64,000 nt of DNA from Candidatus Altimarinota bacterium (GTDB taxonomy: Bacteria > Patescibacteriota > Gracilibacteria > UBA1369 > JBGAUX01), in NCBI GenBank assembly GCA_044228405.1, contig JBGAUX010000002.1, forward strand, positions 1,805 to 65,804. The letters run 5' to 3'. Positions 5,490 through 38,821 of this stretch are shown piece after piece (positions within the stretch are counted from its first letter, which is position 1; the number at the start of each line of letters is the position of its first letter). The position numbers were made by a program, and so were the translations under genes. The notes under the pieces are model-generated. The model worked only from the letters and a program-made list of their open reading frames with translations, made no database searches and was not told where the DNA came from.

Positions 5490-6074
5490 ATGAACGGTGG
5501 AATTCTCGGCAAAAAATTAGGCATGACCCGCATCATTCAAGATGATGGCCGCGTGATCCCGATAACTGTTGTACAGTGCAATCCTAATACGATTACACAG
5601 GTAAAAACAGCAGAAAATGACGGATATCCGGCGATAGTCCTCGGCTTTGACGAGTACTCAAAACCAGGGAAGTGCAAGAAGTTTAAACACGTAAGAGAGG
5701 TTCGTATTAGTAAGCTAGGCGAACATGAAAAAGGAGGACAAGTTACAGTAGAAATTTTTGAAGAAGGTGAAAAAGTAAGAATATCTGGAACCACTAAAGG
5801 TAAAGGTTTCCAAGGTAGTATTAAAAGACATAATTTCTCAAGAGGACCAGAAACTCACGGATCACATCACCACAGAGAACCAGGTTCTATTGGTGCTTGT
5901 GCGGCTCCAGGTAGAGTTGCAAAAGGTAAAAAGATGGCAGGACGAATGGGTGGAGACAAAATGAGTTTAAGAGAGGTTGAAGTTATATATAAAGATATTG
6001 AAAAAAATCTTCTAGGTATTAAAGGACCATTACCTGGAGCAATAAACAGCTTAGTACTTATTAATAAGAAATAA
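5490..6074 (+). CDS. rplC: 50S ribosomal protein L3
   Basis: 194 aa; MNGGILGKKLGMTRIIQDDGRVIPITVVQ...; an in-frame TAA at 5475 prevents upstream extension. Confidence 0.97.
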   Translation: MNGGILGKKLGMTRIIQDDGRVIPITVVQCNPNTITQVKTAENDGYPAIVLGFDEYSKPGKCKKFKHVREVRISKLGEHEKGGQVTVEIFEEGEKVRISGTTKGKGFQGSIKRHNFSRGPETHGSHHHREPGSIGACAAPGRVAKGKKMAGRMGGDKMSLREVEVIYKDIEKNLLGIKGPLPGAINSLVLINKK

Positions 6075-6084
6075 TTAAAAAAAG

Positions 6085-6714
6085 ATGAAAGTAGAACTCT
6101 ACAATCAAAAAGGTGAAAAGGCTGGAACAGTTGATTTAAATGTTGATATTTTTGACATCGAATTCAATAAAGATTTAGTGCACCAAGCTCATACAAGACA
6201 AATGGCTAACGCTAGATTGGCTTTAGCTCATACTAAAACTAGACATTTCGTTAACAGATCTACAAAGAAACCTTTTAGACAAAAAGGTACTGGTAACGCT
6301 CGTCAAGGTTCTACAAAGTCTGCCCAAATGAGAGGTGGAGGTATTATTTTTGGTCCTTCTAATGAAAGAAATTTCAAACAAGATATGCCAAAGAAACAAC
6401 GAAGAAAGGCTTTATTCTGTGCATTATCAGAAAAAGCACGCAGTGAACAAATTATAGCGTTAGAAAATTATTCAGAGGATTCAAAGAAAACTAAAGATTT
6501 TACAGCATTAATGAGTAAATTACCTGTTAAGAGAAATCTATTAGTGGTTATGGACCAACACAACGACGGTTTAGAGTTATCAGCAAGAAATCTTCCTACG
6601 GTTAAAACGATTTTGGTGAACTACCTAAACATTTCAGATTTGATCAAGTACGAAAAAGTTCTCTTTCTTAAAGAGGCTTTTTCTAAATTGGAAGAAGTAT
6701 TTTTAAAAAAATAA
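6085..6714 (+). CDS. rplD: 50S ribosomal protein L4
   Basis: 209 aa; ...FRQKGTGNARQGS... L4 motif; position in the S10 cluster. Confidence 0.96.
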   Translation: MKVELYNQKGEKAGTVDLNVDIFDIEFNKDLVHQAHTRQMANARLALAHTKTRHFVNRSTKKPFRQKGTGNARQGSTKSAQMRGGGIIFGPSNERNFKQDMPKKQRRKALFCALSEKARSEQIIALENYSEDSKKTKDFTALMSKLPVKRNLLVVMDQHNDGLELSARNLPTVKTILVNYLNISDLIKYEKVLFLKEAFSKLEEVFLKK

Positions 6715-37167: not shown

Positions 37168-37197
37168 AAAAAAAAGCCCCTCCAATTAAGGAGAGGC
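37168..37197 (-). terminator. Rho-independent terminator oriented on the minus strand, abutting the carA stop
   Basis: Minus strand reads GCCTCTCC-TTAATT-GGAGGGGC followed by TTTTTTTT (plus-strand A-run at 37168-37175); there is no T-run on the plus strand. Confidence 0.7.
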
Positions 37198-37598
37198 GAG
37201 AAAACTTAAAATAAGCTTTTGTTTTCTTTGTGTTTTTGTAACATTCTTGCCATAGACTTAGGAAATATTTTGAGTCCCTCCCGAAGACCTTCCGTTTAGT
37301 GCTTCATCTACCCACCTTAAAGGCAGGGATAAAACCGGAACACTTTGCGAACAAAGTTTCTAAAGCGGTTAATTTGAGTTAACCAGCATCTAAGCAAAAA
37401 CAGGAAGAAGGTAAAGTGCAAAATTTTCCTTTTAGGTCCGACAGGACTTTTGTTGTGTCGTAATGACTATTTTGATCTCCAGGAACAAAGAAGGATAATT
37501 AATTCTTTTTGTAGGTTACCTTCCCTACTGCTTTTGTTTAAAACTTAATGTAAATGAACGAGAACCTTTTGTTTTTTGTTTTTCCTTTTTCTGAAATT
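37168..37598 (-). ncRNA. Candidate ~430-nt non-coding RNA of unknown class (orphan promoter-to-terminator unit)
   Basis: No ORF of 60 aa or more on either strand. Bounded by a TTGACA-N16-TATAGT promoter and a U8 terminator on the minus strand. Hairpins include ACUUUG-UUCG-CAAAGU, GGUUAA/UUAACC and GUAGG/CCUAC. The octamer AACAAAAG occurs four times. Confidence 0.45.
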
Positions 37599-37604
37599 CA
37601 TATC

Positions 37605-37632
37605 ACTATACCTCGGCAAAATTATTTGTCAA
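37605..37632 (-). promoter_or_regulatory. Near-consensus promoter TTGACA-N16-TATAGT on the minus strand
   Basis: Reverse complement: TTGACA at 37632-37627, 16-nt spacer, TATAGT at 37610-37605; it fires into the 430-nt ORF-less region. Confidence 0.55.
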
Positions 37633-37706: not shown

Positions 37707-38099
37707 TTACTTCTGCGCCAAAGCTTCCTTTTGAGCCTTCATCCATGCAGTGAAGTTTTCCTTTACCAATTTCAAAGCAGCATCAGCTTCATTTGGATTT
37801 GCTGGTTGATCATATCCAAATTCTTTTCGACAACTGTCCGACCCCCAATATGATCCAAATCTGCCTTCCACACCAACAACACCACCACCACCAATTAACG
37901 TAGCACCATTGGGAACCATATCCTTGTGATACACGCTGTCATAGCCAAAAACCAAATGCCTTACTTCACCAATAATTGCTAAAACAAATTTTACAGTTAC
38001 TTGATTCAACTTGAAAAGCTTATTAACAGGGCCACCCACAAATGAAACTTCTACTGGGGCAACATCTTCTGTGGTTTTATCGCCTACTGAATCAGACAT
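37707..38099 (-). CDS. Hypothetical protein, 130 aa, no recognisable family
   Basis: ORF 31 nt downstream of the 169-aa gene; shares the V(K/E)FVLxxIGE segment and an amphipathic C-terminal helix pattern with its upstream neighbour. Confidence 0.7.
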   Translation of the reverse strand: MSDSVGDKTTEDVAPVEVSFVGGPVNKLFKLNQVTVKFVLAIIGEVRHLVFGYDSVYHKDMVPNGATLIGGGGVVGVEGRFGSYWGSDSCRKEFGYDQPANPNEADAALKLVKENFTAWMKAQKEALAQK

Positions 38100-38130
38100 T
38101 TCCTTTAATTATTAAATGTTAAAAAACCCT

Positions 38131-38640
38131 TTAATTTACATTTGGTACTCCTACTACTTCCTCACCAGCAGTCTGTTGTTCTACTTCCCATCCTGATATT
38201 GCCGCTTTAATTGCTACTGTAATTTCTTCCAAAATCATTTCAGGAGTTTTGCCCCCTTCTTGCAAATTTTCAAGATACTGACGCGTACTGCTATCTTTTT
38301 TATCAAATTTCACAGGGTGCATCTTGCCATCAACAAATAACATATCTCCGATGGCAAGAAGCTTCTCTCCATCAAGTAACCAATTCCTGCGATTCGTATT
38401 GGCCAATATCTCTACTCCTACAACAATTCTTAGGCTTTCCCCAGTTTCGCCTATTTCACATAACACAAACTCTACAGATCCTATATCAGCTTTTGTTTGC
38501 CCCAAAACAGTGTCAACAGTATGTCTAACACGAGCACAACTTGGGTTATAGGGATTATCGATCCATTCAACCCCCCTTGTTGTAACAATAGATTCTCCCT
38601 CACCAGGCATTTCGATAAATGGTCTAACATCAACACTCAT
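38131..38640 (-). CDS. Hypothetical protein, 169 aa, no recognisable family; weak paralog of the downstream 130-aa protein
   Basis: I chose the ATG at 38640 (MSVDVRPFIEMPGEGES...); the track start at 38736 adds a Cys-rich, non-protein-like leader. Confidence 0.7.
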   Translation of the reverse strand: MSVDVRPFIEMPGEGESIVTTRGVEWIDNPYNPSCARVRHTVDTVLGQTKADIGSVEFVLCEIGETGESLRIVVGVEILANTNRRNWLLDGEKLLAIGDMLFVDGKMHPVKFDKKDSSTRQYLENLQEGGKTPEMILEEITVAIKAAISGWEVEQQTAGEEVVGVPNVN

Positions 38641-38821
38641 TTTCAAATATTTAAAATTATAAGGGAGCAAGCTATCACAGGGCAGCACAAAATTGCAACA
38701 ACTTAATGAAGCCACTTCAATCAAGCTCCAATGCAACCATTGCCTGTTGTTTTACAATTAAACAACAAATAAGCTTGAAGAAAGCTTTTACTTTTAAGGG
38801 TAGATGGCATATTTTTGATGC

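What the first reader, a model, noticed from the sequence alone, without database searches (positions are those of the whole stretch)
37168..37632. Orphan ~430-nt promoter-to-terminator unit with no ORF: candidate novel structured ncRNA
A 550-nt ORF-less gap between convergent genes is exceptional in this tightly packed window.
- On the minus strand a near-consensus TTGACA-N16-TATAGT promoter (37632-37605) fires into the gap.
- A GC-rich hairpin followed by U8 (37197-37168) ends the unit right next to the carA stop.
- The predicted RNA contains ACUUUG-UUCG-CAAAGU (a UUCG tetraloop), GGUUAA-N6-UUAACC, GUAGG-N8-CCUAC and GUCC-UGUC-GGAC hairpins, plus a possible long-range UCCCUGCC/GGGAGGGA pairing.
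- The octamer AACAAAAG occurs four times; it reads CTTTTGTT on the + strand, at 37216, 37447, 37531 and 37566. That is far more than expected by chance in 400 nt.
I could not match it to RNase P, tmRNA, SRP or 6S RNA. It lies directly downstream of the two paralogous ORFans on the same strand, so the three may form one cassette.
Basis: seen in the sequence. Interest (0 to 1): 0.65.

Follow-up and report, generated by a model that had tools for sequence, protein, structure and literature searches.

The report
New large structured RNA in Peregrinibacteria
The gene-free gap next to carA holds a separately transcribed, intricately folded non-coding RNA of about 430 bases from a previously undescribed family that most bacteria of one ultra-small (CPR) order carry, usually in two copies, and whose function is unknown.

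Summary
Window 37632-37168 (minus strand) is a complete transcription unit: a TTGACA-N16-TATAGT promoter, about 430 nt with no conserved ORF, then a GC hairpin and U8.

- It matches no Rfam 15 family. The genome's RNase P RNA, tmRNA and a 6S-like candidate lie elsewhere.
- A second copy, 69% identical and with its own promoter and terminator, sits on another contig.
- A covariance model of the 3' core finds full-length homologues in 140 of 205 genomes of the order (MAGs titled Candidatus Peregrinibacteria/Peribacteria), often two per genome. There were 6 hits elsewhere in the class and none elsewhere in the phylum or in viral contigs.
- Covariation is very strong: 44 of 47 pairs change on both sides, and 88% of cells pair against about 40% in slid controls. 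It defines a five-helix junction with a pseudoknot.
- A single-stranded AAACAAAAA(C/U)AAA motif flanks the fold on both sides.
- Two syntenic lineages exist. The window copy belongs to the dinG-RNA-carA lineage.
- The two ORFans are a lineage-specific insert, not a cassette with the RNA.

Function is inferred only. My best guess, at about 30%, is a trans-acting RNP scaffold or titrating RNA. No expression data could be obtained.

The parts
37605..37632 (-). Sigma-70-type promoter: -35 TTGACA (37632-37627), 16-nt spacer, -10 TATAGT (37610-37605).
   Evidence: scores it 11/12. The same TTGAC(A/T)-N16-TATAGT layout is found in the C60 paralogue and in type-B orthologues. A promoter is present in nearly all of the 34 homologues examined.
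37588..37601 (-). Predicted 5' end and conserved 5' leader AUGAAUUUCAGAAA. The transcription start is inferred at about 37601-37598.
   Evidence: It is invariant between the two paralogues. A similar (A/G)UGA(A/U)UUUCA follows the -10 box in type-B orthologues. The start site is inferred, not mapped.
37566..37583 (-). A/C-rich single-stranded motif 1, AAAAACAAAAAACAAAAG.
   Evidence: This is the family-wide motif AAACAAAAA(C/U)AAA.
37530..37539 (-). A/C-rich motif 2, AAACAAAAGC (octamer at 37531), immediately 5' of helix P0.
   Evidence: Type-B orthologues carry AAAACAAAAACAAAA at this position.
37516..37525 (-). P0 helix, 5' strand (GGGAAGGUAA).
   Evidence: RNAalifold on the two paralogues gives 10 pairs, two of them with G-C/G-U or A-U changes. 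An analogous helix just 5' of the core occurs in many of 71 homologues: median duplex -12.6 kcal/mol and 65% with z<-1. Support is moderate.
37415..37515 (-). Lineage-specific insert inside P0. It holds the block UUUGUUCCUGGAGAUCAAAAUAGU (37489-37466), A/C motif 3 (octamer at 37447) and the hairpin GUCC-UGUC-GGAC (37447-37436).
   Evidence: It is conserved with the C60 paralogue only. The hairpin is kept through a compensatory C-G to U-A change. Insert length varies from 19 to more than 170 nt across the family.
37403..37414 (-). P0 helix, 3' strand (UUACCUUCUUCC).
37240..37404 (-). Conserved core: a five-helix junction.
- H1: 37402-37388 with 37257-37242.
- H2: hairpin 37384-37367.
- H3: UUCG hairpin 37357-37342.
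- H4: long hairpin 37340-37290.
- H5: hairpin 37289-37273.
- Junction strand: CAAAAUAUUUCCUAA, 37272-37258.
   Evidence: Models R1, R2 and R3 were built on this segment. Matches span the whole model in 140 of 205 genomes of the order. 44 of 47 pairs change on both sides, and 87.9% of cells pair against 38-42% in slid controls. MAFFT plus RNAalifold, independent of the models, recovers H1, H2, the base of H4 and H5.
37261..37283 (-). Pseudoknot: the GGGA in the H5 loop (UCGGGAG) pairs with the UUCC in the junction strand 3' of H5.
   Evidence: The family-wide pattern is loop GGNN with NNCC. The informative pair (columns 313-332) shows C-G 17, A-U 13, U-A 11. The covariation score is 0.219 against 0-0.08 in slid controls. 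A GUCC subclass needs a bulged U.
37216..37239 (-). A/C-rich motif 4 in the 3' tail, ACAAAAACACAAAGAAAACAAAAG (octamer at 37216).
   Evidence: The 3'-tail motif (G)AAAACAAAAACAAA sits 15-25 nt after the core in most homologues.
37168..37197 (-). Intrinsic terminator: GCCUCUCC-UUAAUU-GGAGGGGC plus U8. It ends 11 nt from the carA stop codon.
   Evidence: It is kept with compensatory changes in the paralogue. A strong terminator hairpin was found in 31 of the 34 homologues examined.

Best explanation
**Shown.** Window 37632-37168 (minus strand) is an independent gene for a non-coding RNA of about 430 nt. It belongs to a previously undescribed family of 350-540-nt RNAs found in Candidatus Peregrinibacteria/Peribacteria.

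The RNA has a modular build:
- a 5' leader;
- a long-range helix (P0) that encloses a variable insert;
- a compact core that is a five-helix junction locked by a loop-to-junction pseudoknot;
- a 3' tail ending in an intrinsic terminator.

The folded part is flanked on both sides by G-free, single-stranded AAACAAAAA(C/U)AAA motifs. Most genomes keep two old paralogues in fixed neighbourhoods: sdaA or purN / RNA / mscS, and dinG / RNA / carA. The window copy is the dinG-carA type.

**Inferred, about 30% for this specific mechanism.** The RNA acts in trans as a stable ribonucleoprotein scaffold or titrating RNA.
- The pseudoknotted core would give a specific docking surface.
- The repeated A/C-rich strands would serve as landing pads for a single-strand RNA-binding factor.
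- These strands resemble the A-rich, G-depleted, Shine-Dalgarno-less regions upstream of start codons in this genome. The titrated factor could therefore be the 30S subunit/S1 or a translational regulator that reads such leaders.
- The logic would be that of CrcZ titrating Hfq in Pseudomonas, but with a different protein, because Hfq is absent here.
For: **Gene anatomy.** Promoter and terminator are confirmed.

**Second copy.** A paralogue with conserved promoter, 5' end and terminator but different flanks lies at C60:2282-2760.

**No known family.** No Rfam family matches the window locus or 20 homologous loci.

**Distribution.**
- 140 of 205 genomes and 90 of 118 genera of the order, often two copies.
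- The hosts' record titles read Peregrinibacteria/Peribacteria.
- Six hits elsewhere in the class.
- None elsewhere in the phylum.
- None in viral contigs.

**Transcription signals in homologues.** Promoters are present in nearly all and terminators in 31 of 34 homologues.

**Structure.**
- Covariation: 44 of 47 pairs, 87.9% paired against about 40%, score 0.592 against about 0.1.
- Pseudoknot.
- Alignment-independent confirmation.

**Synteny.** Two conserved neighbourhood classes.

**A/C motif.**
- 6.9 per kb in the RNAs against 1.1 per kb in the flanks; 2.9 copies per RNA on the sense strand against 0.2 on the antisense strand.
- At fixed positions on both sides of the fold.
- Predicted unpaired probability 0.77 against 0.40 elsewhere.

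**Translation leaders.** Positions -14 to -1 upstream of 675 long ORFs are 40-52% A and 4-13% G, with no Shine-Dalgarno signal. AACAA-type words are enriched there.
Against: - No transcript evidence. No RNA run holds the sequence, and the laid metatranscriptome contigs gave nothing.
- No binding partner is identified, and Hfq is absent.
- An elaborate, order-wide conserved pseudoknotted core is more than a simple sponge needs. It would also fit a catalytic, ligand-binding or self-assembling RNA.
- A-rich stretches are predicted unpaired almost by composition alone.
- The likeness to translation-initiation regions is compositional, not a tested interaction.
- The single-sequence folding z-score is modest at -2.1.
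- About a third of the order's genomes gave no hit with R2. At least one of them is recovered by R3, so part of this is a sensitivity limit.
Confidence: 0.55

Rival explanations
1. It is an ornate RNA whose function lies in the fold itself: a ribozyme, a ligand or metabolite sensor, or a self-assembling particle like ROOL or GOLLD. On this reading the A/C-rich strands are only flexible linkers or stability elements.
For: - The five-helix junction with a pseudoknot has several near-invariant unpaired nucleotides: GAUGG, the AAAC bulge of H4, and the (A/G)AAAA(U/C)A junction. These are conserved across the order.
- Its size of 350-540 nt and its structural complexity are typical of the few known large bacterial ncRNAs.
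- No protein partner gene is consistently adjacent.
Against: - The A/C motif is conserved in sequence, position and copy number across distant members, which argues that it is read by something.
- There is no cleavage-site or ligand clue.
- No viral copies were found.
- Nothing here tests catalysis or assembly.
Confidence: 0.3
2. It is a cis-acting element of a neighbouring gene. Examples would be a convergent antisense or terminator module for carA, or a long leader or regulator tied to dinG.
For: The dinG / RNA / carA arrangement is conserved in several families. The RNA's terminator abuts the 3' end of carA: 86-107 nt from the end of the core in three lineages.
Against: - The type-A paralogues and the C60 copy sit in entirely different neighbourhoods while keeping the same fold.
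- The RNA ends at a strong terminator before reaching carA and does not overlap it.
- In the window dinG is 1.4 kb away, behind two inserted genes.
- Structural covariation of this extent is not expected of a mere spacer.
Confidence: 0.05
3. It is a strongly diverged member of a known housekeeping RNA family: SRP RNA, 6S RNA, RNase P RNA or tmRNA.
For: No SRP RNA is detectable in this genome or in 30 relatives. One universal RNA is therefore unaccounted for, and the new RNA is order-wide and strongly promoted.
Against: - The Ffh M domain that binds SRP RNA is also absent from all 31 genomes. Loss of SRP subunits is reported for many CPR bacteria (PMC8080830).
- No SRP-family hit reaches E<=10 on the locus.
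- Two diverged copies per genome are untypical for SRP RNA.
- RNase P RNA, tmRNA and a 6S-like candidate (40.8 bits) lie elsewhere.
Confidence: 0.03
4. It encodes a small protein, and the conservation reflects coding.
For: A 34-codon TTG-started frame lies on the sense strand at 37421-37317.
Against: - A 4-nt indel in the paralogue falls inside that frame.
- Substitutions across the family are compensatory in helices, not at third codon positions.
- Indels of all lengths occur in loops.
Confidence: 0.02

Closest known systems
CrcZ / CrcY / CrcX of Pseudomonas (Hfq-titrating RNAs; Rfam CrcZ family)
   Same: - Size is about 400 nt.
- It has its own promoter and terminator.
- Several single-stranded A-rich motifs with a C or U every sixth base (AAC-AAA-AAC-AAA, cf. 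AAnAAnAA) mimic A-rich translation-initiation regions.
- It occurs as paralogous copies in one genome.
   Different: - No sequence or structure match to the Rfam model.
- No Hfq gene in the genome.
- The promoter is sigma-70-type, not sigma-54/CbrB-type (from my own knowledge of CrcZ).
- The new RNA has a conserved pseudoknotted five-helix core that CrcZ lacks.
- The phylum is different (CPR).
Large 'ornate' bacterial ncRNAs: OLE, ROOL, GOLLD, raiA, HEARO
   Same: - It is a large (>300 nt), multi-helix, covariation-supported RNA.
- It is free-standing, restricted to one lineage, and of unknown or only partly known function.
   Different: - No Rfam match to any of them.
- It is smaller than OLE, ROOL and GOLLD.
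- No phage association.
- No adjacent partner genes of the oapA/oapB or IscB kind.
- It carries a repeated single-stranded A/C motif.
Protein-sponge RNA pairs: CsrB/CsrC, RsmY/RsmZ, and 6S-1/6S-2
   Same: The RNAs are abundant, come as paralogous pairs, and carry repeated protein-binding motifs.
   Different: - The motif here is a G-free A/C strand, not GGA in hairpin loops.
- The fold is neither a string of hairpins nor an open-promoter mimic.
Other undescribed 0.4-0.6-kb RNA genes noted by this scan in Peregrinibacteria genomes (e1-2997768 and others)
   Same: - e1-2997768 shares short words with a type-B orthologue. It is described as a roughly 380-nt RNA gene with its own promoter and terminator, found across Peribacteria. 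It is probably the same family.
- Several tandem or two-copy cases are seen here too.
   Different: Those notes are unchecked AI reports on other genomes. Whether the gmk-, rny-, mnmA- and HNH-linked RNAs belong to this family was not tested.

Membership tests
Free-standing structured ncRNA gene (generic definition) | Own promoter and own terminator, in the same orientation in all members | tested here: met
   for the window. for 34 homologues.
Free-standing structured ncRNA gene (generic definition) | Base pairs kept through compensatory changes, beyond controls | tested here: met
   44 of 47 pairs, 87.9% paired against about 40%, 0 of 500 shuffles reach it. One search confirms it on a MAFFT alignment made without the model.
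Free-standing structured ncRNA gene (generic definition) | No conserved reading frame | tested here: met
   (a frame-breaking indel in the only 34-codon frame). Indels of all lengths occur in loops.
Free-standing structured ncRNA gene (generic definition) | A discrete transcript is detected | tested here: inconclusive
   No RNA run holds the sequence, and the laid metatranscriptome contigs were empty. Absence in contigs proves nothing.
CrcZ-type Hfq-titrating RNA | Several single-stranded A-rich (ARN-type) motifs | tested here: met
CrcZ-type Hfq-titrating RNA | Hfq present as the titrated partner | tested here: not met
   PF17209 finds nothing in the genome at E<=1. The genome is 91% complete.
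CrcZ-type Hfq-titrating RNA | Match to the Rfam covariance model | tested here: not met
   No hit even at E<=10 with permissive filters.
SRP RNA | Match to Bacteria_small_SRP or Bacteria_large_SRP (conserved domain IV) | tested here: not met
   for the locus. for the genome and 30 relatives: 0 of 31.
SRP RNA | Ffh with an RNA-binding M domain is encoded | tested here: not met
   PF02978: 0 of 31 genomes, against 14 of 14 controls. No SRP54-type GTPase motifs in the genome's own ORFs.
RNase P RNA / tmRNA / 6S RNA | The locus matches the family model, and no other copy exists in the genome | tested here: not met
   RNase P RNA is at C44:27300-27713 (150.9 bits). tmRNA is elsewhere. A 6S-like candidate is at C1:26660-26815. 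The locus matches none of them.
OLE / ROOL / GOLLD / raiA / HEARO | Match to the Rfam covariance model | tested here: not met
OLE / ROOL / GOLLD / raiA / HEARO | Characteristic partners or carriers (oapA/oapB, IscB, phages) | tested here: not met
   The neighbours are sdaA, purN, mscS, dinG and carA. No viral contig hit with the one pattern tried.

The most novel reading that the evidence does not exclude
This RNA would be the founding member of a CPR-specific ribonucleoprotein. A pair of ancient paralogous RNAs would each combine a pseudoknotted core with idealised, G-free mRNA-leader mimics and so capture the translation-initiation machinery (30S/S1) or its regulator. They would act as a global translational governor in bacteria that lack Shine-Dalgarno-led initiation, Hfq and the SRP.
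Probability: 0.12. Interest if true: 0.85.

Novelty: categorically new. Interest (0 to 1): 0.72.

Why it matters
Only a handful of large (>300 nt) structured bacterial RNAs are known. Nearly all of them turned out to be ribozymes, RNP cores or striking assemblies.

This one is present in at least two thirds of the species-level genomes of a whole CPR order. It is usually kept as two ancient paralogues in fixed genomic positions, and its fold is pinned down by unusually rich covariation. It therefore behaves like a housekeeping component of organisms whose reduced biology is still poorly understood: no SRP, no Hfq, no Shine-Dalgarno signal.

- It gives a concrete, testable handle on RNA-based regulation in the Candidate Phyla Radiation: a defined fold plus a defined single-stranded motif.
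- It is a ready candidate for a new Rfam family.
- It would improve annotation of 'empty' gaps in Peregrinibacteria MAGs.

Tried and rejected
**Searches that found nothing**
- Rfam at the gathering threshold and at E<=10 on the locus, and at gathering on 20 homologous loci. The only sub-threshold hits were chance matches driven by the terminator: PyrR, ctRNA, L10 leader.
- BLAST of the whole RNA against 60 relatives found only the in-genome paralogue. The family is too diverged for sequence search alone.
- The first metagenome pattern, taken from the two paralogues, found nothing. A family-based pattern later found 12 contigs.
- Expression: no RNA run holds the window RNA or two homologues, and laying Saanich-type metatranscriptome contigs gave zero coverage. 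This is uninformative.
- Literature searches for Peregrinibacteria ncRNA, and two 2026 preprints on ncRNA discovery, turned up no description.

**Ideas rejected**
- Hfq as partner: the gene is absent.
- SRP RNA identity: neither Ffh nor any SRP-like motif is present.
- Cassette with the ORFans: no co-occurrence.
- Pairing of the H2 loop (YUGAC) with the 5'-domain CCAAGAG/GUCGAG boxes: on inspection of the sequences, the two variants do not co-vary.

**Analysis not relied on**
- A FastTree of the 151-column core was too noisy to decide whether types A and B are each monophyletic. It groups copies partly by host family, so I draw no conclusion beyond the window and C60 copies being sisters.

Full report
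**1. The observation**

On the minus strand of the window a near-consensus promoter faces a gap. The promoter is TTGACA 37632-37627, a 16-nt spacer, then TATAGT 37610-37605. The gap ends in an 8-bp, GC-rich hairpin (37197-37176) followed by U8 (37175-37168), 11 nt from the carA stop.

The only sense-strand frame is 34 codons long and starts with TTG. The octamer AACAAAAG lies at 37216, 37447, 37531 and 37566, exactly as reported. With 16 copies in 64 kb on both strands, four in 433 nt of one strand has a Poisson probability of about 3e-7. The folding energy of the single sequence is only mildly unusual (z = -2.1). Everything below therefore rests on comparison with relatives.

**2. Not a known RNA**

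- Rfam 15 gives only a tRNA in the whole window at gathering thresholds.
- On the locus itself, with permissive filters and E<=10, there are only chance hits driven by the terminator.
- Twenty homologous loci also match nothing.
- The genome has its RNase P RNA at C44:27300-27713 (150.9 bits), a tmRNA elsewhere, and a sub-threshold 6S candidate at C1:26660-26815.

**3. A paralogue**

BLAST of the RNA against the genome and 60 relatives found one more copy, on contig C60 (2282-2760, minus strand). It is 69% identical over the whole length, and nhmmer finds no third copy.

The paralogue keeps the -35 and -10 boxes, the 5' AUGA(A/U)UUUCAGAAA and a terminator. Its neighbours are different: an alpha/beta hydrolase upstream, and tsaB and rsmI downstream.

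**4. The family**

A covariance model of the 165-nt 3' core (R1) found matches spanning the whole model in 26 of 205 genomes of the order. Rebuilt from those sequences (R2), it finds 140 of 205 genomes and 90 of 118 genera, very often with exactly two copies.

- A class-wide sample of 401 genomes gave only six hits outside the order.
- A phylum-wide sample with the third model (R3) gave none outside the class. It did recover a genome of family f7 that R2 had missed, so the 68% is a lower bound.
- A pattern scan of the species-representative genomes names the hosts: MAGs titled Candidatus Peregrinibacteria, Peribacteria or 'Gracilibacteria'.
- Twelve further environmental contigs hold the pattern. 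No viral contig does.
- DNA runs from wastewater, sludge and freshwater hold the window sequence.
- No paper found describes such an RNA.

**5. Anatomy**

Nearly every homologue examined starts behind a -35/-10 promoter, and 31 of 34 end in a strong intrinsic terminator. Lengths run from 348 to 544 nt.

The core is a five-helix junction:
- H1 closes the junction.
- H2 is a hairpin. In most members its loop reads YUGAC.
- H3 is a small hairpin capped by a tetraloop.
- H4 is a long hairpin with a conserved A-rich bulge.
- H5 is a hairpin.
- A junction strand, (A/G)AAAA(U/C)A..NNCC(A/G)AA, follows H5.

On 57 distinct sequences, 44 of 47 pairs show changes on both sides. 87.9% of cells are standard pairs, against 38-42% when partners are slid. 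The covariation score is 0.592 against 0.07-0.14.

That alignment was fitted to the model. I therefore repeated the test on a plain MAFFT alignment of 30 members. RNAalifold independently recovers H1, H2, the base of H4 and H5, with 14 of 22 pairs compensated.

The H5 loop (GGNN) pairs with NNCC in the junction strand. The informative pair is C-G in 17 sequences, A-U in 13 and U-A in 11. A subclass reading GUCC needs a bulged U.

Immediately 5' of the core lies P0, a long-range helix that encloses an insert of very variable length. In the window it is GGGAAGGUAA 37525-37516 with UUACCUUCUU 37414-37405, enclosing about 100 nt. Support for P0 is moderate.

**6. The A/C motif**

- It occurs at 6.9 per kb in the RNAs against 1.1 per kb in their flanks.
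- It averages 2.9 copies per RNA on the sense strand against 0.2 on the antisense strand.
- It sits at fixed places: before P0, 15-25 nt after the core, and often again in the loop of a tail hairpin.
- It is predicted unpaired with probability 0.77, against 0.40 for the rest of the RNA.

In this genome the 14 bases before the start codons of 675 long ORFs are 40-52% A and 4-13% G, with no Shine-Dalgarno signal. The motif therefore looks like an idealised mRNA leader. That is a compositional resemblance, not a tested interaction. Other ORF-free promoter units of the genome carry the same motif.

**7. Neighbourhood**

Two syntenic lineages exist:
- Type A lies between a divergent L-serine dehydratase (sdaAB/sdaAA) or purN gene and a convergent mscS-like gene.
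- Type B lies between divergent dinG and convergent carA.

Many genomes have one of each. The window copy is type B. In relatives dinG lies 230-450 nt upstream of the core, whereas here it is 1.4 kb away, because the two ORFans sit in between. Neither ORFan has a homologue in the other 71 loci. They are an insertion, not part of a cassette.

In a rough tree the C60 copy is the sister of the window copy, next to the type-B clade of family f17. I do not interpret the tree further.

**8. What it does**

Shown: it is a gene, a family, a fold and a motif. Not shown: transcription, a partner, an activity. No RNA run could be used.

The combination of features points to a stable trans-acting RNA that binds something through its single strands, with the core as a specific docking or folding module. 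Those features are:
- a strong promoter;
- two old paralogues;
- a compact pseudoknotted core;
- repeated, conserved, accessible A/C strands on both sides.

The nearest functional analogy is CrcZ, which titrates Hfq with A-rich motifs that mimic target leaders. Hfq is absent here, so the partner would have to be another factor, possibly S1/30S or an unknown regulator. I give this about 30%. I give about 30% to a function residing in the fold itself (catalysis, ligand binding or assembly). Cis-regulatory, coding and known-family readings get small odds.

The SRP idea deserved a test, because no SRP RNA is detectable in 31 genomes of the order. However, the Ffh M domain is missing too, in line with the reported absence of SRP subunits from many CPR bacteria (PMC8080830). 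The locus also has no SRP-like features.

**9. Verdict**

The RNA belongs to a new, order-wide family of large structured ncRNAs of the CPR that is neither in Rfam nor in the literature searched. That note is a lead, not independent evidence.

Noticed in passing
whole genome G000 and 30 same-order genomes: No SRP RNA (RF00169, RF01854) and no Ffh M domain (PF02978) were found in any of 31 genomes, several of them closed, while the control genomes ring. The genome's own ORFs lack SRP54-type GTPase motifs. Loss of SRP subunits in many CPR bacteria is mentioned in PMC8080830. FtsY was not searched separately.
   Followed up: partly
whole genome G000 (675 long ORFs): The regions upstream of start codons are A-rich (up to 52% A at -10) and G-depleted (4-13% G from -14 to -1), with no Shine-Dalgarno signal. 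This suggests SD-independent initiation, as in Bacteroidota.
   Followed up: partly
G000 contigs C46:750-1470 (-), C23:1-360 (-), C38:~5750-6100 (+), C18:10007-10809 (-): Further ORF-free stretches have sigma-70-like promoters and the same AAACAAAAA(C/U)AAA motif. C18 also holds a small lysine/alanine-rich repeat ORF. These are possible additional ncRNA genes that share the A/C module. Earlier scan notes mention gmk-, rny-, mnmA- and HNH-linked RNAs in other Peregrinibacteria.
   Followed up: no
window 37707-38736 (-): The two ORFans (130 aa and 201 aa as listed) have no Pfam hit and no homologue in 71 loci of relatives. They sit where relatives have dinG directly next to the RNA, so they are a lineage-specific insertion.
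   Followed up: partly
homologue loci, e.g. L012, L017, L024, L032, L035, L038 (upstream of the -35 box): A conserved (A)TGTC(C/T)A box lies about 11-12 nt upstream of the -35 hexamer in type-A and type-B genes of other families. It is missing from both copies in this genome. It could be a regulator site or an UP-like element.
   Followed up: no
G000:C1:26660-26815 (+) (L084): A sub-threshold 6S RNA candidate scores 40.8 bits against a gathering score of 46.4, E = 3e-7.
   Followed up: no
G016:C2:49483-52374, G029:C1:90542-93448, G063:C1:245842-247316, G120:C11:9411-10764: In some genomes the two copies lie 1-3 kb apart on the same contig instead of in the two separate syntenic sites.
   Followed up: no
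core tree of 72 copies: Types A and B group partly by host family rather than by type. This hints at concerted evolution or co-evolution with a shared partner, but it may be noise from only 151 columns.
   Followed up: partly
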